From Pyruvatibacter sp. (GTDB lineage: Bacteria; Pseudomonadota; Alphaproteobacteria; CGMCC-115125), in assembly GCF_040219635.1 (NCBI RefSeq), contig NZ_JAVJSC010000003.1, forward strand, positions 548,120-612,119: a DNA stretch of 64,000 nucleotides. The letters run 5' to 3'. Positions 7,342-56,107 of this stretch are shown here, piece by piece (within the stretch, counting starts at the first letter, position 1; each line of letters begins with the position of its first letter). The translations under genes and the position numbers were made by a program. The notes beneath the pieces are model-generated. The model saw nothing but the letters and a program-made list of their open reading frames with translations. It was not told the origin of the DNA and did not search any database.

Positions 7342-7358
7342 TCAGCAAGATCGCAGAT

Positions 7359-7565
7359 ATGAAAAACATGCTCCTCGCAGGGCTTCAGTTCCTCTTCAGG
7401 ATAGGCCCCATCCTTTTTGGCCTGGCGTTTCTGGCACCGGTCAGCGCAGAGCTGATGACGCTTGCAGGCATCATCCAGCCGTTCGGTATGCCCTCCATTT
7501 ATGTGGGCCTCATCATTGGCCTGAGTTGGGGCAGCTACGCCCTGCTGCGCGGGAGATGGATATGA
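7359..7565 (+). CDS. small hydrophobic membrane protein (hypothetical)
   Basis: 68-aa ORF with two predicted TM stretches. Its stop overlaps the start of the downstream desaturase, suggesting translational coupling. Confidence 0.4.
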   Translation: MKNMLLAGLQFLFRIGPILFGLAFLAPVSAELMTLAGIIQPFGMPSIYVGLIIGLSWGSYALLRGRWI

Positions 7566-8895: not shown

Positions 8896-8983
8896 GTCTG
8901 TTACTGCTGCGTGCCGGATAATCTGGTCAATCGGCATATGTGGGCATCTTGGCAAATATCCGACCGCTGCCATACTACGCCTT

Positions 8984-36121: not shown

Positions 36122-36174
36122 AAATTGGAGCGGGCGATGAGATTCGAACTCACGACCCCAACCTTGGCAAGGTT
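36122..36174. repeat. attL-type direct repeat: perfect 53-bp copy of the tRNA-Gly(GCC) 3' part
   Basis: aaattggagcgggcgatgagattcgaactcacgaccccaaccttggcaaggtt is identical to 56029-56081. Confidence 0.95.
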
Positions 36175-36533: not shown

Positions 36534-37334
36534 ATGGAAAATTCCGGCTCCACTTTCTCCGGTCGCTTCGGGTACCACGCGCCTGCAGTCGAGATCACTA
36601 TTCGCGAAGACGCCCCGACTTCGGTGCGCGATGGCATCTTGATGCTGGGCTACGGTGCTGACCTAGGACCGGGGGAAATGCGCGACATCCTCTGTCGGGT
36701 CTTACTGACTCGCCCCGATCAGAATAATTGGTCGGCTACCAACATTGAGCGTGAGGTCTCAGGGCTAATCGACGATGCGCCTTGGTACAAGGTCTATGAC
36801 TTTGCGGAACGTCTTTACATCAAACTAGGTGCAGATGGTCATACGGGCGACCGTCAAGACTCCTTCGAAGCTCAACTCAATCAGCTCTTCCGCGAGAAGG
36901 GTGTCGGGTGGGAGATGAAAAACGGAGCCATTGTCGCTCGCGGCTCAGAAGCATTCACTCTGGCAACTGGGCACGCGACGGATGTCATGCGCGAAAGTGG
37001 GACCCCAACTGCCGCGAGCGAAATCCACGAAGCGCTTCGCGATATTTCACGCCGCCCAGATGCCGATGTAACGGGCGCAATCCAGCACGCCATGGCAGCT
37101 TTAGAATGTGTGGCGCGGGAAGTGGATGGCAGTAGCGATACGCTAGGACAGATCATCAAGCGACTTAACCTGGCTGCACCACTTGATGGTTCACTGCACC
37201 AACTATGGGGATTTGCCTCGCAGCAAGGTCGCCATATTCAAGAAGGTCGGAATCCAAGCTTCGAAGAAGCAGAGTTAGTAGTTACGCTTGCGAGCGCGGT
37301 TAGCATTTTTCTCCTTCGGCGTCGGGACGGTTGA
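36534..37334 (+). CDS. AbiJ-like abortive-infection protein (AbiJ-NTD4-type N-terminus, HEPN-like C-terminal module)
   Basis: N-terminus ...FSGRFGYHAPAVEITIRED... fits the FSxRxGy...i pattern of AbiJ N-terminal domains. C-terminus ...PDADVTGAIQHAMAALECVAREV...TLGQIIKRL...LWGFASQQGRHIQEG...EEAELVVTLASAVSIFLL fits the AbiJ/HEPN helical module. Assigned from memory. Confidence 0.5.
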   Translation: MENSGSTFSGRFGYHAPAVEITIREDAPTSVRDGILMLGYGADLGPGEMRDILCRVLLTRPDQNNWSATNIEREVSGLIDDAPWYKVYDFAERLYIKLGADGHTGDRQDSFEAQLNQLFREKGVGWEMKNGAIVARGSEAFTLATGHATDVMRESGTPTAASEIHEALRDISRRPDADVTGAIQHAMAALECVAREVDGSSDTLGQIIKRLNLAAPLDGSLHQLWGFASQQGRHIQEGRNPSFEEAELVVTLASAVSIFLLRRRDG

Positions 37335-37346
37335 TTCAGCCGACCA

Positions 37347-39689
37347 TCAAGCCTTATCACGCGCCATTTGCTTTTGCAGAAGCGGGCGGACGGTTGAGGT
37401 CATTTTCCCCTGCGCCCAGTTTTCAAGACCCGGAACAACAGACCCTTTGAGACTGTTGAGCGCATGATGGACCCTGACGGTCGCCGGCAGGGAGTCAGCC
37501 TCGACCAAGCGCAGGAAGAAGAAATCAAGATCACGCCATTCCTCATGTAAGAGTTTGTGAATGGCGGAAGTCAACGGCTCCGCCAAAGCGTGTTCCGCAC
37601 TCAAGACGCTGCCCGCATTTCCAAGGTTTGCAATACTATGCGCTTTGAGGTTGGCCATGTTTCCACCGCGCACAAGCGGCATCCGGGCGCGGCCGACATG
37701 AAGCATAACCTCTATGTCAAGGCGCTCCTCAATTGTTTCGCCAAAAGCGGTACGGACGGACGCTAGTTGTGAGAGGATCAGCCAGGACATCATGTTGCCG
37801 TATGCAACGCCGAAATCGTCATCATCCGATAGTGGAGTGTAGTCGCCAACGACATTGCCATACACATCGAGAGCGGCTACCTCGCCGTCTTCATTAAAAT
37901 GGAGGTCGCGTACGGTACCGTCTGCCATCTGAATTCCGATGGTCTTGCCAAATAGACTCTCAACGCAGGGCCGATCATTCATCAGCGATCCCATCAAGCC
38001 TAAAGGCAGGCCATTTCGCTTTCGACCGAGATCGCAAAGGGCCTGTGCGCCTACAATATCGCCGAGAAAGAAGCGGCTTGCTTGCTGAATCAGTACTCGC
38101 CAAGCCTCATCAGGCTCAGCGTTGAGGGCAACTTCGATCGTGTCGGCGAGCTCCCGCGCCAATTCGCTCATGAAAAGTTCGGGTACGCGGAAGGCAACGA
38201 GATCCTTACCGGTCGAATGCCGATAGAAGCCCACCCATCCTTCCTCCTGTAGTTTGACCGCAGCGTCCTCACCATCAGAACTGAGCGCGTCCCGCCGGAT
38301 GACGAATGCGTTGGTGCCGGCCAAGGTAACTTCCGGGTTCGGGGCTTCCTCATCACAGAGCGCGTCGCGGACAATAAGGCGGTGACGGCGTGCGACATCA
38401 TGGAGCGGATCGAAGCGCTCTCTCGCACTCTGAACTAGTCTGAGACCCATGGTAGCAGGAATTGCAGCAGCAACGTTTTCCTTCTCAGGTAACGCACCGC
38501 CCGCAAGGACGGAGCGAAGCACCCAGGCAGCGCGATATTCGTCAGACAGCTCCGCGCCTGGATAGAAGAAAATCCGGTTCCTGGAGAGATGTTCTCTGAT
38601 CGCACTGAACTCATCATCGTCGAGGGTGTCGACTTGCACAACCTTAGCAATTGATGAGACCGCTGTTTGGCCGCGGCCCGTGCCATCGAGAAGGATGTCA
38701 TCGGCGCACTCCGTGCAACCTACAAGACGGAGACCTTCGCCAAAGCCCGTCTCGGCGAGCTCCTCGAAATCGTGTGCAACCGGAGATCCGGGCTTCAATC
38801 CGTCGACGGCGAGGACAAGTGCGGGCTTGCGCGTCGACTGGGACATTCGCCTCAGCCAAGTGCGGACATCATCCGCTTCCAGCTTCCATTCCAGCGCCGC
38901 TCCCAGAATATTGGCCAGACGTTGAAAGAGACCAGGACCGGCTGTTGCGCCATTGACCATGAATATGCCCCAATCAGGCGAACAGCGCGTGGCGACCGCC
39001 AATTCGCGCAGGACGTTGCTCTTGCCAGCGAGAGGGGGCCCCTCAACGATCACCGCTTTGGTCGCGCTGTCGAATTGCGCGATGATCTCGTCCGTGGCCC
39101 TCCGGTGAAACAGCAGCTCCTCACAGAATGGCTTAAATGTATCGCCTGGTTCTCCCGTCATGCGATCGATCAATTTATCAGTGCGTTGACGCACTGCTTC
39201 AACCCAAACGCTGGTCTCTGGACCCATTAGGACCTCAATGGCCCAGCTATTGTCAGCTGCAGCCAACTTACCGATGTTGGCGAAGACCTTTTCGATAGTC
39301 GCCGCGCCATCGAGACCAAGAGGTAGTTCCTTGCCGCTATCGACCTGGCGAACCCACGTCTCGTTGCCATTGCTCACAATAACAAGAGGCGGCCTAGGAG
39401 TCAGAACTGCAGCATAGCTCTGGCCTTGCTTAAGATCCTGCGCCATTAGCGCCTTATCCGCGCGCTTAAGCTCGACAACGGCGAGCGGGTCCCCGTCATA
39501 AAGAAGTAGAAGGTCAGCCCGTCCCTCGGCCTCCCAAGCGGCAGTGCCGTCATAGTCATTATCCGTATGTCCGAGTTTGAGCTTGAGGCGCTTCTCGACC
39601 TTAAAACTCTCAGCTTTCACATGCGGAAAAGCTTCGCGGGCTAAGCCCACAACATAGGATTGCAACTGTGCTTCGGGAACGACTGTCAT
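37347..39689 (-). CDS. PD-(D/E)xK (HsdR_N/Mrr-like) nuclease domain fused to a P-loop STAND-like NTPase and a ~450-aa C-terminal region
   Basis: Residues 1-125: ...GRADLLLLYDGDPLAVVELKR...QGQSYAAVL...LVIVSNGNE (D...ExK, HsdR_N-like). Walker A IVEGPPLAGKSNVL; Walker B ALVLAVDGL; then LRLVGCTE and VVQVDTLDDDEFSAIREHL, resembling STAND/NACHT post-Walker-B motifs. Confidence 0.6.
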   Translation of the reverse strand: MTVVPEAQLQSYVVGLAREAFPHVKAESFKVEKRLKLKLGHTDNDYDGTAAWEAEGRADLLLLYDGDPLAVVELKRADKALMAQDLKQGQSYAAVLTPRPPLVIVSNGNETWVRQVDSGKELPLGLDGAATIEKVFANIGKLAAADNSWAIEVLMGPETSVWVEAVRQRTDKLIDRMTGEPGDTFKPFCEELLFHRRATDEIIAQFDSATKAVIVEGPPLAGKSNVLRELAVATRCSPDWGIFMVNGATAGPGLFQRLANILGAALEWKLEADDVRTWLRRMSQSTRKPALVLAVDGLKPGSPVAHDFEELAETGFGEGLRLVGCTECADDILLDGTGRGQTAVSSIAKVVQVDTLDDDEFSAIREHLSRNRIFFYPGAELSDEYRAAWVLRSVLAGGALPEKENVAAAIPATMGLRLVQSARERFDPLHDVARRHRLIVRDALCDEEAPNPEVTLAGTNAFVIRRDALSSDGEDAAVKLQEEGWVGFYRHSTGKDLVAFRVPELFMSELARELADTIEVALNAEPDEAWRVLIQQASRFFLGDIVGAQALCDLGRKRNGLPLGLMGSLMNDRPCVESLFGKTIGIQMADGTVRDLHFNEDGEVAALDVYGNVVGDYTPLSDDDDFGVAYGNMMSWLILSQLASVRTAFGETIEERLDIEVMLHVGRARMPLVRGGNMANLKAHSIANLGNAGSVLSAEHALAEPLTSAIHKLLHEEWRDLDFFFLRLVEADSLPATVRVHHALNSLKGSVVPGLENWAQGKMTSTVRPLLQKQMARDKA

Positions 39690-40087
39690 TCCCCTATTAT
39701 AGGAATTTTAGTGGGGCAACCGCGATAAAGTTTCATCGAACACCCACCAGTGTCTTAGTTGTTTCAAGAGGCTGACAATTTGAAAATCCTTATTTAGCTG
39801 TGTGACGAACGTGTCGGGAGCAGAACCTTAACTAGCTAGAGCGCCCTGCACGCTGCAGGATTTGGCCATTTGACGATTGACCACCGGAAGGTGGACCTAG
39901 CTTGGAAGAAGCCAGGGACCTCGGCAGGGTGATTTTCATTCCGATGGCATTGGCCCAACCGGTTGCGGTACGGAGCGGGTAGCTGAGCGGCGACCCACGT
40001 TGTTCTCGAGGGAATTGAGCCCCTTAATCGAACAGTAGCGACTATCGAGGGTGTCCGTCCTTCCTAATCGAGTGAGATTCTTTGCCG

Positions 40088-40855
40088 ATGAACAGAAAGC
40101 AATTCATCCAGTCCAATGGAGCGGAGTGTGCGAACTGGACATGGAGCTGGTCTTTTGTGAACCACGCCAACAAAATGGTCATATTTGGACTGTGGGAACA
40201 GTATGACCACGGGGGCTTGGGCTTACTGATGGCGAAGGACTGGGCCATCAGCAACCGGGGAAGAAAGCAACCAGGGTATGCGCAAGCCGTGCATCATCTC
40301 AACTTAGTCGCGGACAAAGGCTACATACTGTTTACATTTCCTATCCGGCCCAAGTTTGGTGTGGAAAAGCGTGACACCCTCGAACCAACCAAGATATCCA
40401 GTTTCAAGCCGGAGTTGACGCAGAAAGTTCTTATTGTCCTAGGCGGCGGTTGGTACGCAGCGCCCGCTGGACAATCCAGCATCCCAGACGAGGAAGTCAG
40501 CTCCGGCGAGCTCCTTTTTGAAGGAGCTGTCCAATCGACTACTGTGAACGCTTACGAGCGCAACGCTGGAGCTCGCCAAATGTGTTTGGATCATTTCGGA
40601 CACACCTGCTGCGTATGCGCATTTGACTTCGAGCACGTCTATGGAGAGCTGGGAGCGGACTACATCCATGTTCACCATATCATTCCGCTCAGTGAAATAG
40701 GGGAAGAGTACGCGATTGACCCCACAGCAGATTTGGTGCCGGTATGCCCGAACTGCCACGCGATGATCCATAGGACACGCCCAGCCCTGACCATAGAAGA
40801 ACTAAAATCGCAGATAGAAAAGGCCTCTCCTGCGCATGGTCAGCATCGAGGGTAG
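40088..40855 (+). CDS. HNH endonuclease (McrA-like C-terminal nuclease) with an unassigned ~150-aa N-terminal domain
   Basis: C-terminus CCVCAFDF...YIHVHHIIPLSE...LVPVCPNCHAMIH is a classic HNH/McrA zinc-finger nuclease. The ATG at 40088 is preferred to the TTG at 40082. Confidence 0.8.
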   Translation: MNRKQFIQSNGAECANWTWSWSFVNHANKMVIFGLWEQYDHGGLGLLMAKDWAISNRGRKQPGYAQAVHHLNLVADKGYILFTFPIRPKFGVEKRDTLEPTKISSFKPELTQKVLIVLGGGWYAAPAGQSSIPDEEVSSGELLFEGAVQSTTVNAYERNAGARQMCLDHFGHTCCVCAFDFEHVYGELGADYIHVHHIIPLSEIGEEYAIDPTADLVPVCPNCHAMIHRTRPALTIEELKSQIEKASPAHGQHRG

Positions 40856-45511: not shown

Positions 45512-46741
45512 ATGTCGTTCAAATCATCAATCACCAAGCGCGTCCGGAAGCGCAAGAACAAAGCCGGTGAGGTCGTGCTGCACACGCGGCATGTCCTCAA
45601 TTACAAACACCCAGCGGACGGGAAACGTCGGCAGGAGTTTTTCGAGCGTCGCGCCGAAGCACAGGATCGCCAATCACAATTGGCGGCGAGTATCGAGATC
45701 GACCCTTTCTTCGATCCGATGAGCGGGCTGACTGTATCCAAGGCCGTCGACCACTGGCTGGAGAACAAACAGAAGCGCGTGAAGGCAAGTAGCTATGCAG
45801 CCTGCCTGGCTGTCGTGGAGCACATCCGGGGGCCGGTGTTGATTGGCACACGGGACGAGCGCGCGCAGTTCAAGAAGACGGGCATCGCGCCCGTCGGCAC
45901 CGACGTGCAGGAGCGCCTCGGCAAGCTCCTGGTGTCGGAGCTGAGAACTGCCCACATCCGCACATGGTTCAACGAAGTCCGAGACACTTCCGGTGCTTAC
46001 ACCGCTCGGCGGGCCAAGTCGTTCTTCGGCAGCGTCCTTGCTTTGTCCGAGGAGGACTTCGGCATCCGCGTTCCTTCCATGCCCACACAGTTGGGCAAGG
46101 GTAATCCCAAGACACGCAAATTGATCCTTGAACCGCAGCAAGTTGCCCAGGTTATCCAAGAGGCCCAAGCCGATAGTGAGCACGGCCTCTACTATGCCTT
46201 CCCGTTCCTTGCCGGCACCCGACCGAGCGAGCAACTGGGGCTGTTGTGGTCCGAAGTGGACTTTGATCAGAACACGATCCGCATCTGCCGTATCCAGGAG
46301 CGGGATGGGACCCTATGCGAGACGACCAAGACGGCCGCAGGGACGCGCGAGGTACCCATGGGCGGTACCCTTAGGGCGATGTTGCTCCAATGGCGCCTCC
46401 GATGCCCAAGGGAGGCCGGGGAGCTATATCGCGTGTTCCCCGGTCCCGGTCGACTGCAGCCGTGGCCACTCCCGCGCCTCGGAGGCGGTCCGCTGCTGTA
46501 TCAGAATTGGCGACGGAGGTACTGGCAGCCCGTGTTCAAGCGGCTGGGTTTGCCATACGTGACGCCCCACTCGGCGAGGCACACCTACATCTCGACGCTA
46601 CAGGCGCAGGGTATTGAGGTCGGACTAGTGGCCAAGATGGCGGGGCACGCCAATCCGACCGTGACTCTGGGCATCTATACCCAAGCAGTGAGGGGCGGGG
46701 AGGACGCTGTCCGGAAGCTCGACGAGGCATATTCGAGGTAG
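45512..46741 (+). CDS. int: tyrosine-type site-specific integrase
   Basis: N-terminal SAM-like/arm-binding region. Catalytic region ...FLAGTRPSE (R) ...HSARHTYIS (HxxR) ...GHANPTVTLGIYTQ (H...Y). Confidence 0.9.
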   Translation: MSFKSSITKRVRKRKNKAGEVVLHTRHVLNYKHPADGKRRQEFFERRAEAQDRQSQLAASIEIDPFFDPMSGLTVSKAVDHWLENKQKRVKASSYAACLAVVEHIRGPVLIGTRDERAQFKKTGIAPVGTDVQERLGKLLVSELRTAHIRTWFNEVRDTSGAYTARRAKSFFGSVLALSEEDFGIRVPSMPTQLGKGNPKTRKLILEPQQVAQVIQEAQADSEHGLYYAFPFLAGTRPSEQLGLLWSEVDFDQNTIRICRIQERDGTLCETTKTAAGTREVPMGGTLRAMLLQWRLRCPREAGELYRVFPGPGRLQPWPLPRLGGGPLLYQNWRRRYWQPVFKRLGLPYVTPHSARHTYISTLQAQGIEVGLVAKMAGHANPTVTLGIYTQAVRGGEDAVRKLDEAYSR

Positions 46742-46873
46742 CCCGGGGCCCATCTCATTTTCGCGGCATAGCAGACCGCCCGCCCCGAGACAGAAGCATT
46801 TGAGGTAAAAACCTCTTTACACCAGAGCTATCCCACCGCTACACTCTCAACAGTAGGAATAGGAGTTCTTGGC

Positions 46874-47440: not shown

Positions 47441-47511
47441 GCCACTAAACCAAGGCGGTACGGGGAGGCGAGGACGCTGTCCGGAAATTGGATGATGCCT
47501 ATTCGAGTTAA
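47441..47511 (+). pseudogene. 3'-terminal remnant of a second integrase gene
   Basis: Encodes (stop)-TKAVRGGEDAVRKLDDAYSS-stop, versus the YTQAVRGGEDAVRKLDEAYSR-stop of the intact int at 46672-46741. DNA similarity continues for about 30 bp past both stop codons. Confidence 0.8.
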
Positions 47512-47574
47512 CCCGGGAGCACTCTCTTTTTTTTGCAGTGTCGTAGGTCACAGCTCCGCCGCTTCCAAGATGGA

Positions 47575-48736: not shown

Positions 48737-50098
48737 TCACAATTTGTCGAAGACCGATCCCATGCGCGGGCTAAACAGCCGCTCATAGGTCTTCAAGAGG
48801 TAGGAGTCCGTCATGCCGGCTACATAGTCACAGACCGATCTGTGGATGTGACCTACGTCTTTGCAATTCTCGTAGACGTCAGTCGGCAAAAACTTTCCTG
48901 GCTCCGCCAGCATCACTTCAAAGACCGCGATCGCCATCGTCTGACCCTTGAACTCAAGATGTTGAACGCTTGGGCTTAAGATAACGGCTTCGTAGACAAA
49001 GTCTTTGAGAGCTCTCACGAAACGATACGCAGCGTCGGGCATCGAAGCACGAAACTTCAAACGGGGCTCTTCGAACTCAGGCTCTTCTCTAATCTGCACG
49101 CTTGGGATGACGTAGTTCAGAATACGATTGATTTGGTGCTTTCGTTCTCCGCCTTCGGCGAACAATCTGTCTACAAGTCCTCCGTATATGTCATTGCCGT
49201 ATTCGTCCTTATAGTCGCTGAGATAGTCGAGCATGCCTTGGCATTTTTCAGACGTGACAGACTTTTCAAATTGCTCGCGCGTCACGAGACGAAGCGCCAA
49301 GACATCTTCGAGATCGTGGATGCCGTAGCTGATGTCATCTGCCAAATCCATGATGCTGCAAGCGAATGATTTGTGCTGGGCAGAATGGTGCTTATTGCTC
49401 TTGGAATCGAAGCTTTGCAGCAGGTCTCTGTCAGACTGAGAGAGAGGCTCAAGCAACCAATCAACAACATCCTGCTCGCAATCAAGGTAGCATTTGGGCG
49501 GCTTCGATGCGTTCCGGTCCAGAATAGCCGTGCCGCTTGTGTTTGACAGCATGGCCGGAAAAAACGCCGGACTACGCGCCTTGCTGAATGGGACTGGATA
49601 CTTCAGTACACCGAGGAGTGTCTCCCGCGCGAGATTTGATCCAGATTTTGCAGAGAATTTCTCTAGTTTCGACAGTATGCGAAGTGTCTGACCATTGCCT
49701 TCAAAGCCGCCATGGTCCCGCATACAATAGTTGAGCGCGACCTCACCACCATGTCCAAATGGGGGGTGGCCCAGGTCATGCGTGCATGCAATGGCTTGCA
49801 TCATTGAGCGCTCGGGAATGAACTGCACCGCCGCATGCTCTGGAAAAGTGTGAGGTAACTGTTTCGCGAGGCCCCCGGCGATCTGTGCCACCTCAAGCGA
49901 ATGGGTCAAACGTGTACGATAAAAATCGCTATCGCCGAGGTTGAGGATTTGGGTTTTGCCCTGTAGACGCCGGAATGAAGCTGAGTGGACAACGCGCGCA
50001 TAGTCCACATCACCAGGAGACCTCGCATCAAAGGGCTTTTGAACGTATTCCTCCATACGATCATGCCAGATCGATTGCGTACCTTTGATATCAGTCAT
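48737..50098 (-). CDS. dgt: dGTP triphosphohydrolase-family HD phosphohydrolase (Dgt-like)
   Basis: YRTRLTHSLEVAQIAGGLA and THDLGHPPFGHGGE (HD motif), C-terminal ...DYVAGMTDSY. AAGGAG lies 8 nt before the ATG. Confidence 0.85.
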   Translation of the reverse strand: MTDIKGTQSIWHDRMEEYVQKPFDARSPGDVDYARVVHSASFRRLQGKTQILNLGDSDFYRTRLTHSLEVAQIAGGLAKQLPHTFPEHAAVQFIPERSMMQAIACTHDLGHPPFGHGGEVALNYCMRDHGGFEGNGQTLRILSKLEKFSAKSGSNLARETLLGVLKYPVPFSKARSPAFFPAMLSNTSGTAILDRNASKPPKCYLDCEQDVVDWLLEPLSQSDRDLLQSFDSKSNKHHSAQHKSFACSIMDLADDISYGIHDLEDVLALRLVTREQFEKSVTSEKCQGMLDYLSDYKDEYGNDIYGGLVDRLFAEGGERKHQINRILNYVIPSVQIREEPEFEEPRLKFRASMPDAAYRFVRALKDFVYEAVILSPSVQHLEFKGQTMAIAVFEVMLAEPGKFLPTDVYENCKDVGHIHRSVCDYVAGMTDSYLLKTYERLFSPRMGSVFDKL

Positions 50099-51008: not shown

Positions 51009-52499
51009 ATGTTGACGAAAATCAAAAATCCCAAACATTCAGGCCCCATGCCAACAATAACTGCTCTTGCTGACAGGGTGCGGCGCGATGTGTCTCCTCG
51101 GTTGGATGGCAAAACGCGGGAAGAACTTGGCCAGTTCCTGACCCCGGAGTCGATTGCCCGCGACATGGCGACAATGTTTGGTCAACTGCCGCAGGATGTT
51201 GTCTTGCTGGACGCTGGGGCTGGCGTGGGCTCCTTAACAGCCGCGTTCGTATCGGAGGCCCTCTCTAGAGATGAGCCACCGCGCTCAATCACCGTCACTA
51301 GTTTCGAGGTTGACGAGGGGCTAGCCCAGCTTCTTGCGGAAACGCTAGAGCGTTGTCGCGAGGCCTGTGAGGGAGCCGGGGTTCGCTTCGCATCTAAAGT
51401 AGTCTGTGATGACTATATTCTGTATTCGGCTGAACCGCTTCTCACAATGGTCGACAGTTTTAACTGCGCCATCCTCAACCCGCCTTACGCAAAGCTCAAC
51501 AGCGCCTCACGCTGGCGGCAAGCCCTACGCTCGCAAGGCATAGAGACAGTCAACCTCTATTCGGCCTTTGTCTCACTCGCCGTCAACCAGCTAGAACCCA
51601 GCGGCGAGCTTGTCGCCATCACACCACGCTCATTCTGCAACGGGCCGTACTACCAACCCTTCCGCCGCCACGTGTTAGATTCATCCAGCATTGAACGCCT
51701 TTATCTCTTCGAATCACGAAAGACGGCCTTCAAAGACGACGCCGTCCTGCAGGAGAACGTCATCTTTCACCTTCGCAAAGGCAAACCGCAATCCAAACTA
51801 GTCCACCTTGAAACAGATGGCGGCGATACTCGAGAGGTCCCATTTGAGGAGATTGTTCTACCGGATGACGAACACCACTTCATCCGACTGACCATCTCGA
51901 AAGAAGACGCTGAGCTGGCCGAGCGGGTACAGGCGCTGCCTTCCACACTGGTCGACCTCGGCTTGAATGTATCAACCGGCCGCATTGTCGATTTCAGAGC
52001 AAAGGAAGCCCTACGCAAGACGCACGGAAATGATACCGCTCCCCTGATCTACCCAGCTCATCTTCGGGACGGAGGTGTTCGCTGGCCTATCCCAGACTTC
52101 AAGAAGTACAACGCGATCGAAGTTACCGAGCGCATAGAGCGTGAGCTCGTTCCGCCGGGCCGTTACCTCCTCGCCAAGAGGTTTTCCTCAAAGGAAGAGA
52201 AGCGGCGGCTAGTCGTATCCGTGTATGATGCCGTGGCCCCGGCCGCGTTCGACAATAAGCTGAACTTTTTCCATTGCGACGGCAAAGGACTCCCAGATGA
52301 GCTCGCTCTCGGGCTCGCTGCCTTTCTAAATTCGACTGCCGTGGATGACTACTTCCGGCTTTTCTCCGGCCATACGCAGGTCAACGCCACAGACCTGCGG
52401 AACCTCCACTATCCTGCGCGAGACGTTCTCGAGGCCCTTGGCCGGGCAGACCTGGGCGGGCAGGAGAAAATTGATGCGGCAGTAGAGGCGCTCTTTTAG
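51009..52499 (+). CDS. N6-adenine DNA methyltransferase (Eco57I/PstI-BsuBI-type, gamma class)
   Basis: FLTPESIARDM, motif I LLDAGAGVGSL, motif IV ILNPPYAKL, and a TaqI_C-like target-recognition C-terminus. Confidence 0.85.
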   Translation: MLTKIKNPKHSGPMPTITALADRVRRDVSPRLDGKTREELGQFLTPESIARDMATMFGQLPQDVVLLDAGAGVGSLTAAFVSEALSRDEPPRSITVTSFEVDEGLAQLLAETLERCREACEGAGVRFASKVVCDDYILYSAEPLLTMVDSFNCAILNPPYAKLNSASRWRQALRSQGIETVNLYSAFVSLAVNQLEPSGELVAITPRSFCNGPYYQPFRRHVLDSSSIERLYLFESRKTAFKDDAVLQENVIFHLRKGKPQSKLVHLETDGGDTREVPFEEIVLPDDEHHFIRLTISKEDAELAERVQALPSTLVDLGLNVSTGRIVDFRAKEALRKTHGNDTAPLIYPAHLRDGGVRWPIPDFKKYNAIEVTERIERELVPPGRYLLAKRFSSKEEKRRLVVSVYDAVAPAAFDNKLNFFHCDGKGLPDELALGLAAFLNSTAVDDYFRLFSGHTQVNATDLRNLHYPARDVLEALGRADLGGQEKIDAAVEALF

Positions 52500-53497
52500 C
52501 CAGACAGCAGCAATTGCTTCGCCGGGTCATCCCGAATCCAGATGTAAGTATTAACCGCGACATTGCGCTGGGCTCCTTGCCGAGCGGCTGCCTCTTTCCA
52601 CGTACGGTATGCCGTAGTGAAGCCCACGCCAGCCTTGCCACACCGATGGGCGAAGGCCTGCATCCCTTTGACTTTATGCGCGTCCACTTCCCCGTCGCTG
52701 GTCACAGCCTCTATCACCCACAGCCAATCTGTTTCCGGGTGCCTGAGGAGAACGTCGGGCATCGGGTCGGCAAGCGTGAGAACCGCGCCAGCGGCCTCCA
52801 TCTTGGCGCGTTCCTCGGGACTGATTCGGTCCCCATCGCTGTCGTCCACATAAAGAACCTCGTACCCCGCGAGAAAGCGCGGGGCATAATACTCGACACA
52901 ATCATTGATAAGCGCAGCGTGCCCAGTGTCTGAGGCCGCCTTCGCCGCCGCTGCCATCTTAGCTTGGAATGCCAACCGCTCCCGGGCCATCTCGGAAGCG
53001 GCCCATGCATCGAGGCTCTCCTGCCACTCCCCATCCGGCGCTGTTAGTATCTCCCGGAAGGCCGCCTCAAGCCTGTAGGAGGAGTTGGGGCTCTTCGCTT
53101 TGGTGTGGCCCGGGACGAATTCACCGCGGTCGAGCGTGACGGCCTCGATGCCCCCCAGATCACGGAGCGGTTTGATCCAGTAATCCCGGCCCTCCCGATC
53201 TAGCTTTCCGGCACCACGCTGTAGGATGCCGATATGACAGGCAAGGTGCGCTGTCGACGCGCCGTCGGATAGCGTTGAACCCTTTGGAGCCTTTGAGAAC
53301 CAGCTAAGAGTCTCGTCGTCTAAAAGTGCAAAGACGGCATCAATGAGATCATTATTACCTTGGAGATCAAGATGCCTGAGAACCCGCCGAATCTTATCCT
53401 TGGTAACCCCTTGGTATTGATCTGACACAGCCCGACCGTACTCTGCTACCCGCCTTTCCCTTAGACCCTGCACTTTCCCATCCAGCGCCATACCCAT
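52496..53497 (-). CDS. BsuBI/PstI-family type II restriction endonuclease
   Basis: C-terminal block ...PDVLLRHPETDWLWVIEAVTSDGEVDAHKVKGMQAFAHRCGKAGVGFTTAYRTWKEAA matches my recollection of the BsuBI_PstI_RE core (..liEAVtS.G.v...R...l...). The start is likely the ATG at 53497 or 53491 (the track ORF reaches 53677). The 3' end overlaps the methylase stop by 4 nt. Confidence 0.6.
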   Translation of the reverse strand: MGMALDGKVQGLRERRVAEYGRAVSDQYQGVTKDKIRRVLRHLDLQGNNDLIDAVFALLDDETLSWFSKAPKGSTLSDGASTAHLACHIGILQRGAGKLDREGRDYWIKPLRDLGGIEAVTLDRGEFVPGHTKAKSPNSSYRLEAAFREILTAPDGEWQESLDAWAASEMARERLAFQAKMAAAAKAASDTGHAALINDCVEYYAPRFLAGYEVLYVDDSDGDRISPEERAKMEAAGAVLTLADPMPDVLLRHPETDWLWVIEAVTSDGEVDAHKVKGMQAFAHRCGKAGVGFTTAYRTWKEAAARQGAQRNVAVNTYIWIRDDPAKQLLLSG

Positions 53498-53789
53498 CTC
53501 CGCATAAAGCGTTGAAAATTGAATCGATGCCACAAAGACACGGGTCAAGCCAGCTCTATCGATTTCCTGACAATCTCCGCGACCGACCACAAACGCCCAT
53601 CTGCGGGGCATTAATATGGCGCCATATCCAGCAGCTCGCCACACCCCTTTGCGAAAGCGTTTTCTGACAGGCTTCAAAAGGGGCGCTATAGATGTCAGCT
53701 GAGATAATAGTGCCGGGCACCAGCTCTACAGCACATCCGGCCCGCCTCAACGACCATAGATTTTTCAGGCCAGACGAAGGATCACAGCA

Positions 53790-54863
53790 ATGCCCCGTTC
53801 TATTTCACAGCAGGATGTCAGCTGGTTTCTAGACCTGCATGAGAAGAACCAACTTGATCTCGACCCTCCGTATCAAAGACGGAGCGTCTGGACACTTAGC
53901 GACAAGCGGTTTTTCATAGACACCATCCTGAATGACTATCCAGCGCCTCCCATCTTTCTACACAAGTCGCTAGACGAAGGCGGTAGGCCCACATATCACG
54001 TCGTTGATGGCAAGCAACGACTTACTACCATAATTGATTTTGTCGCCGGTAAAATCCGTATACCCGACGACTTTGGCGATACCAGCTTGCAGAAGAAACG
54101 ATGGAAAGACTTGCAGCGCGAAACTCGCGAAGCATTCTGGAACTATGTCCTTATCGTCGAGATGCTGCCAAGCGTTGACGAAGCTTCCGTAAGAGACACG
54201 TTTGAGCGAATTAACAGGAATTCGAGGAAACTCGAGCGACAAGAAATCCGCCACGCAAAGTTTGATGGTTGGCTGATAAATTCCGTCGAAACCGAGGCCA
54301 ACAGAGATGAGTGGAAAGAGTTCGGCATAGTAACAACGGCACGCGCTAAACGTATGTCAGACGTCCAATTCATTTCGGAATTATATGCAGTTGTCCTCAA
54401 ACGCAAACTGAACGGCTTCGATCAAGATTGGCTGGACAATCTTTACGCAGAATATGAGGACCCCCAAGAAGATCCTTTGTTCATCGAACAAAATTTCGCA
54501 GAGGTCTTCGAGAAAACAAAGAAAGTTGTTGGGGAAGTTTTAGAGCACTGCCCCGACATCAAGAACCACACCAAAGTACTGGTACATTTTTACACGCTTT
54601 GGGGGTTCTTGGTGCTGCACACCGACAAAAAATTTGATCCAAAGGTTTTTGCAGACAAGTACATCACTTTCATGAACAACGTGACAGAGGAGATAAAAGC
54701 AGCGGCATCCGACAACCCCAGCCCCACAGTGGATGAGGCAATCCGCATCTACGCAGCCAACTCACGCGGAGCGAGCACAGATCATACCCCGCGCGCGGCA
54801 CGTCTCAGTCAACTGGTAACCGCAATGGCAGGGATCCAAGGCGTCAACCATGAAGGTAGCTAA
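53790..54863 (+). CDS. DUF262 (GmrS/ParB-like NTP-binding) domain protein without a DUF1524 nuclease domain
   Basis: LDLDPPYQRRSVWTLSDKRFFIDTIL (QR..vW) and VVDGKQRLTTI (DGQQR-type) motifs, followed by a ~200-aa helical C-terminal region. GAAGGA RBS. Confidence 0.8.
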   Translation: MPRSISQQDVSWFLDLHEKNQLDLDPPYQRRSVWTLSDKRFFIDTILNDYPAPPIFLHKSLDEGGRPTYHVVDGKQRLTTIIDFVAGKIRIPDDFGDTSLQKKRWKDLQRETREAFWNYVLIVEMLPSVDEASVRDTFERINRNSRKLERQEIRHAKFDGWLINSVETEANRDEWKEFGIVTTARAKRMSDVQFISELYAVVLKRKLNGFDQDWLDNLYAEYEDPQEDPLFIEQNFAEVFEKTKKVVGEVLEHCPDIKNHTKVLVHFYTLWGFLVLHTDKKFDPKVFADKYITFMNNVTEEIKAAASDNPSPTVDEAIRIYAANSRGASTDHTPRAARLSQLVTAMAGIQGVNHEGS

Positions 54864-55830
54864 TGGAATCCGCAACACGTTCCATGAACAACATCCGTTC
54901 TTCGAGCGCTTGGCGGAGGAGGTTGAAGGAAAGCTCGGTGGGCAGGTTGTTCAAAGAGGTTGGTTCTTCGTCCACAGACTTAAGGAACTAGAGAGTTTTG
55001 CGCTCAAAGTCGAAACGGGGCGCGTGGAGCATCCTGATCGCATGGATGACTTTTTTGCTTGCACAATTGTTGTTCCGACGGTCGCTCAGATCGATGACGC
55101 AGAGACCCTCGTTCGCTCGATTTACAAAGTAGTCGAGCGGCGCCCGAACGACAAAGATAGAACCCACAAGAAGGCATCGGATTTTGTATTCGATGATCTG
55201 CGAATTTATTTGCAGCGACAACCTTCAGACACGGGGCGGAACGCCGACCTAGATGAGTTGGTGTTCGAGGTACAAATCAAAACTATCTTGCAACATGCTT
55301 GGAGCATCGCTTCACATGATCTGATCTACAAGACAGACGCCATTAGTTGGTCGAAAGAGCGTATCGCGTTTCAGGTCAAAGCGATGCTTGAACATGCAGA
55401 AATAGCCATTGCGGAAGCTGAGCAATTGGCAAAGTCGTCAGTGATGTTGGTGAGTGACCAAAATACTGAAGATACTTTAACTGTCGTCACCGCCCTTCGC
55501 TCGTTTTGGGATGCAGAGCGCCTGCCGACAGACATCAAACGGCTTGCCGAGAACGTAAGGGGAGTGCTCGAAGCCTGTGAACTACAACCTAAAGCTTTGC
55601 CAGACCTTCTAGAGGATGAGCGCAACCGCATTGGCTTTATCCCGAAAGACCTCGCTCCATACGCTTTTTTTGTACAGGCACTCGCCCATGCCAAGTCACT
55701 CGATCTGGAAAAGAAACTGAACAGCCACAAGAATAGGCGCATCAAGATTTTTGTGCATGACGATATGGAGCTACCAACCTGGATGAAAGACGACCACAAG
55801 CGGATTGTTCGCCTAAAGAAGAATACTTAA
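54850..55830 (+). CDS. RelA/SpoT-domain (RSH/small-alarmone-synthetase-like) nucleotidyltransferase
   Basis: HRLKELESFALKV...MDDFFACTIVV...FDDLRIYLQ...LVFEVQIKTILQHAWSIASHDLIYK follows the R.K..S...K / D..g.Riv / EvQIRT...H.W...H...YK order of the RelA_SpoT synthetase fold. The ATG overlaps the DUF262 ORF by 14 nt. Confidence 0.7.
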   Translation: MKVANGIRNTFHEQHPFFERLAEEVEGKLGGQVVQRGWFFVHRLKELESFALKVETGRVEHPDRMDDFFACTIVVPTVAQIDDAETLVRSIYKVVERRPNDKDRTHKKASDFVFDDLRIYLQRQPSDTGRNADLDELVFEVQIKTILQHAWSIASHDLIYKTDAISWSKERIAFQVKAMLEHAEIAIAEAEQLAKSSVMLVSDQNTEDTLTVVTALRSFWDAERLPTDIKRLAENVRGVLEACELQPKALPDLLEDERNRIGFIPKDLAPYAFFVQALAHAKSLDLEKKLNSHKNRRIKIFVHDDMELPTWMKDDHKRIVRLKKNT

Positions 55831-56032
55831 GCTGACAGCAAACGCGCACAGCCTCATACGCACTAGCGCCCCACTGTATTCCTCTAAAGAGTTGGGTGCA
55901 GAGCTGCAGACCGGGACACTCTCAGCCGTTCATGTAACCCACGCGTAACCGAAGGGCGCATGGGAGCCCCAAACGCCCGCAAGTTGAGCAAATGAAATTG
56001 GCGGAAAAGCACCACTCTAAGCGCTAAGAAAT

Positions 56033-56107
56033 TGGAGCGGGCGATGAGATTCGAACTCACGACCCCAACCTTGGCAAGGTTGTGCTCTACCCCTGAGCTA
56101 CGCCCGC
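56033..56107 (-). tRNA. tRNA-Gly: tRNA-Gly (anticodon GCC)
   Basis: Reverse complement: GCGGGCG-TA-GCTCAGGGGTAGAGC-A-CAACC-TTGCCAA-GGTTG-GGGTC-GTGAG-TTCGAAT-CTCAT-CGCCCGC-TCCA. This gives a full cloverleaf, a GCC anticodon and an encoded CCA. Confidence 0.95.

What the first reader, a model, noticed from the sequence alone, without database searches (positions are those of the whole stretch)
37347..39689. 780-aa single-gene nuclease / P-loop / sensor architecture (compact Avs- or STAND-like candidate)
Seen: the N-terminal ~125 aa carry a restriction-endonuclease-like core (GRADLLLLYDGDPLAVVELKR, then QGQSYAAV and VIVSNGNE, as in HsdR_N/Mrr-type PD-(D/E)xK domains). This is followed by Walker A GPPLAGKS and Walker B LVLAVDGL. 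Motifs reminiscent of STAND NTPases follow (LRLVGCTE; VVQVDTLDDDEFSAIREHL). The final ~450 aa match nothing I recognise. Established: antiviral STAND (Avs/AVAST) proteins have a tripartite layout of N-terminal effector (often a nuclease), central NTPase and C-terminal sensor that binds phage proteins. Inference: this is a shorter-than-usual member or a distinct family with the same logic. It sits at the island's left end, tail-to-tail with an AbiJ-like gene.
Basis: partly seen in the sequence, partly recalled or inferred. Interest (0 to 1): 0.7.

Follow-up and report, generated by a model that had tools for sequence, protein, structure and literature searches.

The report
Compact nuclease-NTPase immune sensor candidate
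This gene encodes a 780-residue protein that joins a restriction-enzyme-type DNA-cutting domain to an NLR-like nucleotide switch and a small tail domain of unrecognised fold; it sits in a phage-defence island and most likely is an uncharacterised, unusually compact bacterial relative of innate-immune receptors.

Summary
Window 37347-39689 (-) is an intact 780-aa ORF. It belongs to a full-length-conserved family (420 clusters at E<=1e-30) that databases name only 'HsdR N-terminal domain-containing protein'. The nuclease core (D59, E73, K75, Q88, Y92), Walker A (K223 in at least 90%) and Walker B (D296) are conserved, most of them invariant. An AlphaFold model (pLDDT 85) matches Avs3/4, CED-4, NLRC4, Apaf-1, MalT and ORC/Cdc6. 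Profile comparison (99.96%, E 5e-39) shows residues 1-574 are homologous to a ~1,050-aa HsdR_N-NACHT-like-HEAT family. After about residue 575 the repeat sensor is replaced by a ~205-aa alpha/beta domain with no structural match in PDB or BFVD. Its beta-subdomain is the fastest-evolving segment. The gene lies in a 19.9-kb tRNA-Gly island full of defence genes, and homologues sit in varied defence or mobile contexts. It matches no PADLOC system model and lacks the NACHT 'DE' signature. Best reading: a single-protein NLR/Avs-like abortive-infection nuclease. No phenotype has been tested. I rate it a new variant of a known kind, of moderate interest.

The parts
37347..39689 (-). Whole gene, 780 aa plus stop codon: HsdR_N nuclease, STAND-like NTPase module, and a family-specific C-terminal domain.
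   Evidence: ORF list. 110 full-length homologues. 1445 representative clusters, 420 of them at E<=1e-30. AF2 model with pLDDT 85.2 and pTM 0.76.
39315..39689 (-). Residues 1-125: PD-(D/E)xK nuclease domain of the HsdR_N/RecB type. Catalytic residues are D59 (39513-39515) and E73-x-K75 (39465-39473). The QxxxY motif Q88-Y92 lies at 39414-39428.
   Evidence: Pfam HSDR_N and HSDR_N_2, with 46/46 members hitting. D59, E73, K75, Q88 and Y92 are invariant. Translation check. Foldseek hit to EcoR124I HsdR at 4e-5. The QxxxY motif is described in PMC2475608.
39120..39314 (-). Residues 126-190: helical linker. It travels with the nuclease domain in related architectures.
   Evidence: Model helices 129-177. 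Residues 1-210 align at 35% identity with the TPR protein P0109, which lacks the NTPase.
38625..39119 (-). Residues 191-355: P-loop nucleotide-binding domain. Features are Walker A GPPLAGKS (39018-39041), Walker B LVLAVD (38802-38819), a beta4 strand ending in a conserved acidic residue (E327 here), and R339.
   Evidence: Translations. Conservation counts. Across family members: Pfam AAA_22 32/46, AAA_16 19/46, nSTAND_NTPase5 19/46. Foldseek hits to STAND and ORC/Cdc6 proteins.
38190..38624 (-). Residues 356-500: helical lid (LxxxEF helix, G378) and a winged-helix-like domain carrying H491, which is conserved in 54/66.
   Evidence: Secondary structure of the model. Foldseek alignments of 400-500 columns to CED-4, NLRC4 and Cdc6. 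hhalign to the NACHT-like sister family. Column counts.
37974..38189 (-). Residues 501-572: helical bundle carrying the LGDxxGAQA motif (G543, D544). This is the last segment shared with the HEAT-repeat sister family.
   Evidence: The hhalign alignment runs to query residue ~574. Invariant G543.
37350..37973 (-). Residues 573-780: family-specific alpha/beta domain and candidate sensor. It contains a six-stranded beta subdomain (573-632, the most variable segment) and a helical subdomain with invariant W636, G666, E704 and R739.
   Evidence: Separate AF2 model of residues 498-780, pLDDT 88.1 and pTM 0.84. No Foldseek match at E<=0.001 in PDB (best 0.22) or BFVD (best 0.034). Lowest conservation of any segment. 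Retained in divergent members but with a deletion in the beta part.
36534..37334 (+). AbiJ_NTD4 / PDC-S32-like gene, 266 aa, convergent and 12 bp from the target. It is a recurrent neighbour in the closest relatives.
   Evidence: Pfam 3e-18 and PADLOC PDC-S32 1.8e-20. The same convergent pair occurs in L054, L055 and L010, at 76-79% identity.
36122..36174 (.). Left island boundary (attL-like): a 53-nt perfect copy of the 3' part of tRNA-Gly.
   Evidence: Direct repeat family D2. tRNA call.
56029..56107 (-). tRNA-Gly(GCC) at 56033-56107, together with the right copy of the 53-nt repeat at 56029-56081. This is the right island boundary.
   Evidence: ARAGORN. Sequence. Repeat.

Best explanation
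The gene encodes a self-contained NLR/Avs-like antiviral protein.

Proposed mechanism (inferred):
- In the resting state the NTPase module (nucleotide-binding domain, helical lid, winged helix, helical bundle; residues ~191-572) holds the protein inactive.
- A phage-derived cue is recognised by the small C-terminal alpha/beta domain (~573-780), whose variable beta-subdomain is the likely contact surface.
- This permits ATP-dependent oligomerisation.
- Oligomerisation brings the N-terminal HsdR_N-type PD-(D/E)xK nuclease domains together.
- The nucleases then cut DNA, phage and probably host, which aborts the infection.

Shown here: the domain architecture, motif invariance, homology to NACHT-like and STAND proteins, sensor-domain swapping relative to a HEAT-repeat sister family, and the defence or mobile-element context.

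Inferred only: the trigger, the oligomerisation, the DNA cleavage and the protective phenotype.
For: 1. Nuclease. D59/E73/K75 plus Q88/Y92 are invariant in 66 members. HSDR_N hits 46/46. QxxxY is the RecB/HsdR nuclease motif (PMC2475608).

2. NTPase. Walker A glycines G217 and G222 and Walker B D296 are invariant, and the Walker A lysine K223 is at least 90% conserved. Foldseek on a confident model (pLDDT 85) gives Avs3 4.5e-7, CED-4 1.6e-6, NLRC4 2.6e-6, a STAND-TPR protein 3.2e-6, Avs4 6e-6, MalT, Apaf-1, Avs5 and SAMD9.

3. Homology to a NACHT-like family. hhalign prob 99.96%, E 5.2e-39 over residues 1-574 to a ~1,050-aa family. That family carries HSDR_N, NPHP3_N/NACHT Pfam hits, a D-A-I-D-E Walker B and HEAT repeats. 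Divergence after ~575 amounts to sensor swapping.

4. C-terminal domain. It is conserved family-wide, yet its beta-subdomain evolves fastest (0.39 against 0.49-0.62 mean pairwise identity in the close clade) and is indel-prone. Kibby et al. described similar behaviour for the short SNaCT sensor of bNACHT01.

5. Context in the window. The gene lies inside a 19.9-kb tRNA-Gly island. The island carries AbiJ-like, HNH, dGTPase (7.5e-141), PstI-type R-M and GmrSD_N/NsnA-like + RelA/SpoT genes, plus a P4-type primase and an integrase.

6. Context of homologues. They lie beside Hachiman, Mrr and a YobI ATPase; QatB, a KAP NTPase and a HEPN protein; a DndB-domain protein with a DNA methyltransferase, and a reverse transcriptase; OLD-like + UvrD genes and a type I HsdR; an MmeI-type methyltransferase gene; and AbiE, zeta toxin and TIR on Ti plasmids. 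The 136 flanking proteins hit GajA, AriA, pAgo, Old, mad3 and CBASS effectors.

7. No obligatory partner. No neighbour is conserved across 46 loci, which fits a single-gene system.
Against: - No phenotype, trigger, oligomerisation or nuclease activity has been tested.
- No PADLOC system model matches, including AVAST/Avs. NCBIfam gives nothing.
- The window protein's own Pfam scores are below the curated cut-offs: HSDR_N 24.0 vs 25.1, and nSTAND_NTPase5 16.3 vs 34.
- Foldseek cannot separate STAND from ORC/Cdc6 AAA+, because the E-values are equal.
- R339 (64/66) sits where AAA+ proteins carry an arginine finger. The NACHT 'DE' pair after Walker B is absent: D-G-L-K-P here, and acidic at +3 in only 19/66.
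- The putative sensor is only ~205 aa and not a repeat. Characterised Avs sensors that wrap phage proteins are usually 400 aa or more (PMC13581612). Protein-pattern recognition is therefore not assured.
- Subclades have recurrent neighbours that might be required partners: the AbiJ_NTD4 gene convergent in 4 of 7 close loci, and a DUF5623 gene upstream in 7 of 46 loci.
Confidence: 0.6

Rival explanations
1. ATP-dependent, DNA-sensing restriction-like nuclease. The ORC/Cdc6-like ATPase, winged helix and C-terminal domain bind foreign DNA directly (modified, damaged or replicating DNA). The protein assembles on that DNA, and the HsdR_N nuclease cuts it. No phage protein is sensed.
For: - HsdR_N-type nucleases normally work in restriction enzymes. 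Nine members also hit MmeI_N.
- ORC1/Cdc6 structures match as well as STAND proteins do, at 8.6e-7 to 1e-6, with the highest target-normalised TM of 0.38-0.40.
- AAA_22 is the most frequent NTPase Pfam hit, in 32/46.
- R339 lies at an arginine-finger-like position and a winged helix is present.
- The small sensor is poorly suited to enveloping a phage protein.
Against: - Residues 1-574 are homologous to a family with a NACHT-type Walker B and HEAT repeats.
- No methyltransferase or specificity subunit is conserved nearby.
- The C-terminal domain shows no similarity to known modified-DNA readers or any DNA-binding fold.
- No helicase or translocase motor is present.
Confidence: 0.15
2. Component of a two-gene module. 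The protein needs a neighbouring partner as sensor, regulator or antitoxin. The partner would be the AbiJ_NTD4 protein in the sphingomonad clade and the DUF5623 protein in beta/gamma-proteobacteria.
For: - The convergent AbiJ_NTD4 gene is 12 bp away (window, L054) or overlaps by 4 bp (L055), and lies directly downstream in L010. The contexts are otherwise unrelated, and the partner is 76-79% identical while the target is 62-68%.
- A DUF5623 gene lies about 12 bp upstream on the same strand in 7 of 46 loci.
- The Ti-plasmid copy overlaps a TIGR02391 gene by 4 bp.
Against: - The partners differ between clades and are absent in many loci: P0006, P0014, P0022, and most of the 46 loci.
- The AbiJ-like gene is convergent, so it is not co-transcribed. 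PADLOC lists it as a single-gene candidate, PDC-S32.
- The target already contains effector, switch and sensor-like parts.
Confidence: 0.12
3. Not a defence gene. It would be a mobile-element maintenance, replication or targeting ATPase-nuclease, for example TniB/ORC-like, carried by islands and plasmids for their own benefit.
For: - The gene is found on integrative islands, conjugative elements and Ti plasmids; 14 of the 17 plasmid hits are conjugative.
- There is AAA_22 and ORC-like similarity.
Against: - No transposase, relaxase or replication gene is consistently adjacent.
- Immediate neighbours are mainly defence genes.
- The nuclease-NOD-variable C-terminus architecture and the homology to NACHT-HEAT proteins fit immune receptors.
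- It is absent from the phage genome collection.
Confidence: 0.05

Closest known systems
Bacterial NACHT (NLR-related) proteins with restriction-endonuclease effectors, e.g. bNACHT25 (Kibby et al., bioRxiv 10.1101/2022.07.19.500537)
   Same: The layout is N-terminal REase-fold nuclease, central NTPase with helical and winged-helix extension, and C-terminal sensor. Both occur in defence contexts. The nearest detectable relatives of residues 1-574 carry the NACHT-type D-A-I-D-E Walker B and NPHP3_N/NACHT Pfam hits.
   Different: - The window protein and most of its family lack the 'DE' of the D[GAS]hDE signature.
- Only 1 of 46 members gives even a weak Pfam NACHT hit.
- The nuclease is HsdR_N/RecB-type with QxxxY, not Mrr-type.
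- The C-terminus is not a repeat.
Avs3 / Avs4 (antiviral STAND; PDB 8dgc, 8dgf)
   Same: These are the best Foldseek matches to the whole model, at 4.5e-7 and 6e-6. They share the order nuclease effector, STAND NTPase, sensor. From my own knowledge of Gao et al. 2022, they act by target-induced tetramerisation that activates the nuclease.
   Different: - Avs3/4 are 1,500-2,000 aa with large TPR-like sensors that wrap the terminase or portal, and a Cap4-type nuclease.
- This protein is 780 aa with a ~205-aa non-repeat domain.
- No PADLOC AVAST model hit.
- TM-scores are low, 0.28-0.30.
bNACHT01 clade 14 with the short SNaCT C-terminal domain (Kibby et al.)
   Same: Both are compact NLR-like proteins whose short, non-repeat C-terminal domain evolves faster than the NTPase.
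   Different: By Kibby et al.'s description, clade 14 largely lacks fused enzymatic effectors. This family always carries the nuclease. No sequence relationship was tested, because no bNACHT01 sequence was available here.
Avs5 (SIR2-STAND, ~770-830 aa; PDB 9nc9, 9jap)
   Same: It is of similar overall size and has the same effector-STAND-small sensor organisation. Foldseek gives 1.4e-5 and 7e-5.
   Different: The effector is SIR2, which acts by NAD+ depletion. Its sensor is SAMD9-like (PMC13581612). It activates by filament formation (cited). The match here is no closer than to other STAND proteins.
Uncharacterised HsdR_N-NACHT-like-HEAT family (~1,000-1,100 aa; e.g. the Alkaliphilus oremlandii 'HEAT repeat domain-containing protein', P0287)
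   Same: It is homologous from the nuclease through the first C-terminal helical bundle: hhalign 99.96%, 547 aligned columns. It has the same invariant D/ExK/QxxSY nuclease motifs.
   Different: It has a HEAT-repeat C-terminus in place of the alpha/beta domain. Its Walker B is complete, D-A-I-D-E. It occurs in different phyla: Firmicutes, Bacteroidota and Atribacterota.
Type I restriction enzyme HsdR subunit (the name databases give this protein)
   Same: The N-terminal PD-(D/E)xK nuclease domain with QxxxY. Foldseek hit to EcoR124I HsdR at 4e-5.
   Different: - There is no SF2 helicase motor (no ResIII, DEAD or Helicase_C hits).
- No hsdM or hsdS partners are conserved nearby.
- The ATPase is STAND/ORC-like. 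The database name describes only the first ~120 residues.

Membership tests
HsdR_N / RecB-type PD-(D/E)xK nuclease domain | Catalytic D ... (D/E)xK triad on the core beta strands. | tested here: met
   D59, E73 and K75 are invariant in 66 sequences. They lie on model strands 57-64 and 67-75.
HsdR_N / RecB-type PD-(D/E)xK nuclease domain | QxxxY motif on the following helix (PMC2475608). | tested here: met
   Q88 and Y92 are invariant. The motif is described in the abstract listed.
HsdR_N / RecB-type PD-(D/E)xK nuclease domain | Pfam HSDR_N / HSDR_N_2 score at or above the curated cut-off. | tested here: inconclusive
   The window protein scores 24.0 vs 25.1 and 23.4 vs 25.0 bits. All 46 scanned members hit HSDR_N at E<=0.01, the best at 3.7e-10.
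STAND NTPase superfamily | P-loop core with Walker A and Walker B. | tested here: met
   GPPLAGKS and LVLAVD are present. G217, G222 and D296 are invariant, and K223 is at least 90% conserved.
STAND NTPase superfamily | Helical lid plus winged-helix extension C-terminal to the NTPase core. | tested here: met
   Model elements H358-396 and H417-E500. Foldseek alignments of 400-500 columns to CED-4, NLRC4, Apaf-1 and MalT. This rests on prediction, not a solved structure.
STAND NTPase superfamily | Separation from the sister Cdc6/ORC AAA+ clade (no arginine finger; STAND-specific motifs). | tested here: inconclusive
   ORC1/Cdc6 and STAND hits have equal E-values. R339, conserved in 64/66, lies between beta4 and beta5. 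In favour of STAND: homology to a NACHT-signature family and weak AAA_16/nSTAND5 hits in 19/46.
STAND NTPase superfamily | Tripartite effector - NTPase - sensor architecture with exchangeable sensors. | tested here: met
   Residues 1-574 are shared with a HEAT-repeat family, with divergence after ~575.
NACHT subclade | D[GAS]hDE Walker B signature (Kibby et al.). | tested here: not met
   The window protein has D296-G-L-K-P. In the family, position +3 is acidic in 19/66 and position +4 is not conserved. The sister family A5 has D293-A-I-D296-E297.
NACHT subclade | Pfam NACHT (PF05729) match. | tested here: not met
   One of 46 members, at E 0.009. None for the window protein.
Pfam nSTAND_NTPase5 (PF25199) | Score at or above the gathering cut-off of 34 bits. 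| tested here: not met
   The window protein scores 16.3 bits, E 0.009. 19/46 members give weak hits, the best at 4.6e-6.
Avs / AVAST antiviral STAND families | Match to a known Avs/AVAST family model. | tested here: not met
   PADLOC-DB v2.0.0 gave only local HsdR_N-type hits for the window protein and 46 members. Models for Avs6-24 (2025-2026) were not available.
Avs / AVAST antiviral STAND families | Large C-terminal repeat sensor that binds a conserved phage protein. | tested here: not met
   The domain after the NTPase module is ~205-280 aa, alpha/beta and not a repeat. It has no fold match. Lee et al. excluded sensors under 400 aa from their structural clustering.
Avs / AVAST antiviral STAND families | Activation by a phage protein and protection against phage. 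| not testable with these tools
   This needs phage challenge and co-expression screens.
Avs / AVAST antiviral STAND families | Placement among the 198 defence-associated STAND clades of Lee et al. 2026. | not testable with these tools
   The supplementary tables are not held.
Type I restriction enzyme HsdR | SF2 helicase/translocase motor and hsdM/hsdS partners. | tested here: not met
   No ResIII, DEAD or Helicase_C hit. No conserved methyltransferase or specificity neighbour in 46 loci.

The most novel reading that the evidence does not exclude
This would be a distinct class of minimal NLR-like immune receptor with three departures from known ones:
- Its sensor is a ~205-aa alpha/beta domain of a fold not represented in PDB or BFVD. 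It would detect something other than a folded phage structural protein, for example a nucleic-acid species, a small molecule, or a short peptide or host-guardee state.
- Its NTPase lacks the NACHT catalytic 'DE' pair but has a conserved acidic residue at the end of beta4 and an arginine at an AAA+ finger position. It would therefore work as an intermediate between STAND and ORC/Cdc6 switches.
- In some clades it would be tuned by a swappable neighbour, AbiJ_NTD4 or DUF5623.
Probability: 0.2. Interest if true: 0.7.

Novelty: new variant of a known kind. Interest (0 to 1): 0.5.

Why it matters
Bacterial NLR/Avs receptors characterised so far mostly use sensors of 400 aa or more that wrap around core phage proteins. 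Lee et al. 2026 explicitly left sensors under 400 aa out of their structural survey.

This family is widespread:
- 420 clusters at 50% identity.
- It spans Alpha-, Beta- and Gammaproteobacteria, Acidobacteriota, Nitrospira, Verrucomicrobiota and others.
- It includes Pseudomonas aeruginosa, Burkholderia, Sinorhizobium and octopine Ti plasmids.

It is annotated only as a 'type I restriction enzyme N-terminal domain' protein.

If it is a working immune receptor, three things follow:
- It would show how little sensor is needed for NLR-type recognition.
- It would add a new sensor fold.
- It would correct a misleading database name.

Its size and single-gene nature make it an easy experimental target.

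Tried and rejected
- **Sequence searches of PDB.** Searches with the protein, the family profile A1 and the sister-family profile A5 gave only chance-level P-loop hits. The fold assignment therefore rests on the AlphaFold model and Foldseek.
- **NCBIfam and PADLOC.** Neither gave a family or system assignment.
- **Searching with the C-terminal domain alone (A3).** It returned only seven sequences of 263-525 aa, most on contigs under 4 kb. No new architecture turned up.
- **The Bradyrhizobium plasmid hit.** It covers only residues 502-776 and lies about 1.6 kb from an IS21 helper (istB) gene, so it may be a truncation.
- **A shared AbiJ/HEPN-type partner.** I asked whether the Ti-plasmid TIGR02391 neighbour and the window's AbiJ-like neighbour are the same protein. 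There is no BLAST similarity.
- **Literature searches.** Searches for DUF5623, nSTAND5 and HsdR_N+STAND found nothing on this family. The supplementary tables of Lee et al. 2026 are not held.
- **Promoter and terminator scan of 37200-40200.** Nothing found.
- **Phage genomes.** No homologue.
- **A type I restriction subunit.** Considered and rejected: no helicase motor and no hsdM/S partners.
- **A TniB-like transposition ATPase.** Considered and rejected: no conserved transposase neighbour.


Full report
**Observation.** The window contains an intact ORF at 37347..39689 on the minus strand, 780 aa, exactly as reported. I verified the quoted motifs by translation. D59...E73-L-K75...Q88-G-Q-S-Y92 lies at 39414-39515. 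Walker A GPPLAGKS lies at 39018-39041. Walker B LVLAVD lies at 38802-38819. The downstream neighbour at 36534-37334 (+) is convergent, 12 bp away, and carries AbiJ_NTD4 (3e-18) and PADLOC PDC-S32 (1.8e-20).

**A real, conserved family.**
- A search of 5.8 billion proteins returned 110 relatives. Nearly all are 770-820 aa and alignable end to end, down to 29% identity. The only names given are 'type I restriction enzyme HsdR N-terminal domain-containing protein' or 'hypothetical protein'.
- A profile search of 1.84 billion cluster representatives found 1445 hits, 420 of them at E<=1e-30. The best 150 hits are mostly full-length; the rest are shorter fragments.
- Genome hits span Alpha-, Beta- and Gammaproteobacteria, Acidobacteriota, Nitrospira, Verrucomicrobiota, Hydrogenedentota and Longimicrobium. 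The closest is Sphingobium ummariense, at 62%.
- In a 66-sequence alignment the invariant positions include D59, E73, K75, R76, Q88, Y92, G217, G222, D296, E360, G378, P503, G543, P574, W636, G666, E704 and R739.

**N-terminal domain.**
- Pfam HSDR_N and HSDR_N_2 match residues 53-120 at 4e-5 and 6.7e-5, about 1 bit below the curated cut-offs. All 46 scanned members hit HSDR_N.
- The invariant D...ExK triad sits on predicted strands 57-64 and 67-75. The invariant QxxxY on the next helix is the RecB/HsdR nuclease signature (PMC2475608).
- Foldseek also reaches EcoR124I HsdR, at 4e-5.
- The protein has no helicase motor, so the database name covers only this domain.

**Central module.**
- An AlphaFold2 model built on the family alignment is confident (pLDDT 85.2, pTM 0.76).
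- Its best PDB matches are Avs3 (4.5e-7), ORC1/Cdc6 (~1e-6), CED-4, NLRC4, a STAND-TPR protein, Avs4, MalT, Apaf-1, Avs5 and SAMD9. Together these indicate a STAND/ORC-type NTPase with a helical lid and a winged helix.
- Pfam hits among members are AAA_22 (32/46), AAA_16 (19/46) and nSTAND_NTPase5 (19/46). All are below the curated cut-offs for the window protein.

**Link to a NACHT-like family.**
- The clearest link came from a partial hit, P0110 (1070 aa). It has the same HsdR_N domain, linker and P-loop, followed by HEAT repeats.
- Its family is ~1,000-1,100 aa and occurs in Firmicutes, Bacteroidota and Atribacterota. It carries precomputed NPHP3_N and NACHT Pfam hits and an invariant or near-invariant D293-A-I-D296-E297 Walker B. 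That is the D[GAS]hDE signature by which Kibby et al. define NACHT.
- Profile-profile comparison of the two families gives 99.96% probability, E 5.2e-39, over 547 columns. These cover query residues ~1-574.
- The nuclease, linker, NTPase core, lid, winged helix and first C-terminal helical bundle are therefore shared. The families diverge only afterwards.

**Departures from NACHT.**
- Walker B here is D-G-L-K-P. Position +3 is acidic in only 19/66 members and +4 is not conserved.
- The end of beta4 carries D/E in 61/66.
- R339 (64/66) lies between beta4 and beta5, where AAA+ proteins place an arginine finger.
- H491 in the winged helix is conserved in 54/66.
- I therefore file the protein as STAND-type by homology and architecture. 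It is not a NACHT member, and its exact clade is unresolved.

**C-terminal domain.**
- Residues 498-780 were modelled separately with high confidence (pLDDT 88.1, pTM 0.84). The model shows a helical bundle, a six-stranded beta subdomain (573-632) and a helical subdomain.
- Foldseek found nothing at E<=0.001 in PDB (best 0.22) or in BFVD viral models (best 0.034). The domain is not TPR or HEAT.
- It is retained even in the most divergent members (hhalign 98.8-99%), but with a deletion in the beta part.
- The beta subdomain is the least conserved segment. Mean pairwise identity is 0.39 against 0.49-0.62 in the close clade, and 0.26 against 0.36-0.46 overall.
- This pattern, a conserved scaffold with a fast-evolving indel-prone surface, is what a recognition domain would show. 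It echoes the short SNaCT domain of bNACHT01. Ligand binding itself is inference.

**Context in the window.**
- A perfect 53-nt direct repeat (36122-36174 and 56029-56081) duplicates the 3' part of tRNA-Gly(GCC). It delimits a ~19.9-kb island with lower G+C.
- The island's cargo is:
  - the AbiJ-like gene and the target;
  - an HNH protein;
  - an HTH_17 protein, a P4-type primase and an integrase;
  - a defence dGTPase (7.5e-141);
  - a PstI/BsuBI-type R-M pair;
  - a GmrSD_N/NsnA-like gene plus a RelA/SpoT gene.

**Context of homologues.**
- They lie next to the following:
  - a YobI ATPase, Hachiman and Mrr in Sinorhizobium;
  - QatB, a KAP NTPase and a HEPN protein in Natronospirillum;
  - a reverse transcriptase, a DndB-domain protein with a D12-class DNA methyltransferase, and integrases in P. 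aeruginosa;
  - a NACHT-HEAT protein in a metagenomic (ENA) contig;
  - OLD-like + UvrD genes and a type I HsdR, or an MmeI-type methyltransferase gene and a RES-Xre pair, in close relatives;
  - AbiE, zeta toxin, an ABC-three-component system and TIR on pTiAch5.
- Clustering all ORFs from 46 loci found no universally conserved neighbour.
- The 136 nearest flanking proteins hit GajA, AriA, pAgo, Old, mad3 and CBASS effectors in PADLOC. In Pfam they hit HTH, integrase and assorted defence domains.
- Seventeen plasmids carry the gene, 14 of them conjugative. No phage genome does.

**Possible partners.** Two clade-restricted associations were seen.
- A DUF5623 gene lies directly upstream on the same strand in 7 of 46 loci. 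DUF5623 matches only an uncharacterised PDB entry, 3m6j.
- In the window's own subclade, the convergent AbiJ_NTD4 gene recurs next to P0002, P0012 and the S. ummariense copy, in otherwise unrelated surroundings. It is 76-79% identical, so more conserved than the target. It is absent next to P0006, P0014 and P0022.
- The pairing is frequent but not obligatory. I keep a two-gene reading as a minority rival.

**Mechanism.**
- The best-supported explanation (confidence 0.6) is a single-protein NLR/Avs-like abortive-infection nuclease. The C-terminal domain senses an infection cue, the NTPase module switches and oligomerises, and the clustered HsdR_N nuclease domains cut DNA.
- Shown: architecture, invariant motifs, homology, sensor swapping and context.
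- Inferred: trigger, assembly, cleavage and phenotype.
- Rivals: a direct DNA-sensing ATP-dependent restriction-like nuclease (0.15), a partner-dependent two-gene module (0.12), and a non-defence mobile-element function (0.05).

**Comparison with what is known.**
- The closest described systems are REase-NACHT bacterial NLR-related proteins such as bNACHT25, Avs3/Avs4, the short-sensor bNACHT01 clade and compact Avs5.
- The family matches none of the PADLOC v2 models.
- Lee et al. (Nature 2026, PMC13581612) catalogued 589 STAND clades. They clustered only sensors of 400 aa or more, and tested Avs7-24. Their tables are not available here, so inclusion of this family in their catalogue cannot be excluded.

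**Verdict.** It is an uncharacterised, widespread, compact variant of a known kind of immune protein. It has an unrecognised sensor fold and an atypical Walker B. Interest is moderate (0.5): not surprising in principle, but an accessible test case for minimal NLR-type sensing.

Noticed in passing
window 36122-36174 and 56029-56107: A perfect 53-nt direct repeat of the tRNA-Gly(GCC) 3' end delimits a ~19.9-kb integrated island with lower G+C. The target is its second gene from the left end.
   Followed up: yes
window 48737-50098 (-), 51009-52499 (+), 52496-53677 (-), 53790-54863 (+), 54850-55830 (+): The right half of the island carries a defence dGTPase (PADLOC 7.5e-141) and a PstI/BsuBI-type R-M pair. 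It also carries a GmrSD_N/NsnA/PD-T4-2_A-like gene overlapping a RelA/SpoT-domain gene (PDC-S33-like).
   Followed up: partly
window 46675-46761 vs 47445-47531: An 87-nt stretch covering the 3' end of the integrase gene is repeated 770 bp downstream at 76% identity. It looks like the remnant of a second integrase, which suggests tandem or decayed islands at this tRNA.
   Followed up: no
window 36534-37334 (+); L054 7356-8156; L055 7337-8149; L010 9347-10147: The AbiJ_NTD4 gene forms a recurrent convergent pair with the target in its closest relatives. The pair sits 12 bp apart or overlaps by 4 bp, in unrelated surroundings. The AbiJ-like gene is more conserved (76-79%) than the target (62-68%). 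It is absent in three other close loci.
   Followed up: partly
L002 6672-7988, L007 6675-7988 (also L013, L015, L018, L022, L047): In a beta/gamma-proteobacterial subclade, including P. aeruginosa, a ~437-aa protein with a C-terminal DUF5623 domain is encoded about 12 bp upstream on the same strand. DUF5623 matches only the uncharacterised PDB entry 3m6j.
   Followed up: partly
P0110, P0283-P0324 (alignment A5): There is an uncharacterised ~1,000-1,100-aa sister family: HsdR_N nuclease, NACHT-signature NTPase (D-A-I-D-E) and HEAT repeats. It occurs in Firmicutes, Bacteroidota and Atribacterota, and is itself a likely NLR-like defence family.
   Followed up: partly
P0109 (479 aa): The HsdR_N domain plus helical linker (35% identical to residues 1-210) is fused directly to TPR repeats with no NTPase. 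The nuclease-linker unit therefore behaves as a portable module.
   Followed up: no
L053 (pTiAch5, NZ_CP011249.1) 6971-9307: Octopine-type Agrobacterium Ti plasmids carry a 30%-identical family member annotated 'type I restriction endonuclease'. It sits in a cluster with AbiEi/AbiEii, zeta toxin, a TIGR02391 protein overlapping by 4 bp, an ABC-three-component system and a TIR protein.
   Followed up: partly
window 40082-40855 (+) and 39690-40081: A 257-aa HNH protein (weak type IV REase-like PADLOC hit) is divergently transcribed from the target across a 392-bp intergenic region. The consensus scan found no sigma-70-like promoter there.
   Followed up: no
window 38793-38801 (residues 297-299) and family column counts: The residues after Walker B D296 lack the NACHT acidic pair (G-L-K here). 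A D/E at the end of beta4 (61/66) and R339 (64/66) are conserved. This hints at an atypical hydrolysis or switch mechanism.
   Followed up: partly
search hit H2, CP061244.1 (E. coli 'plasmid' of 1.41 Mb): A 36%-identical copy lies in a record labelled as a 1.4-Mb E. coli plasmid, with no annotation under the match. The record looks unusual and I did not examine it.
   Followed up: no
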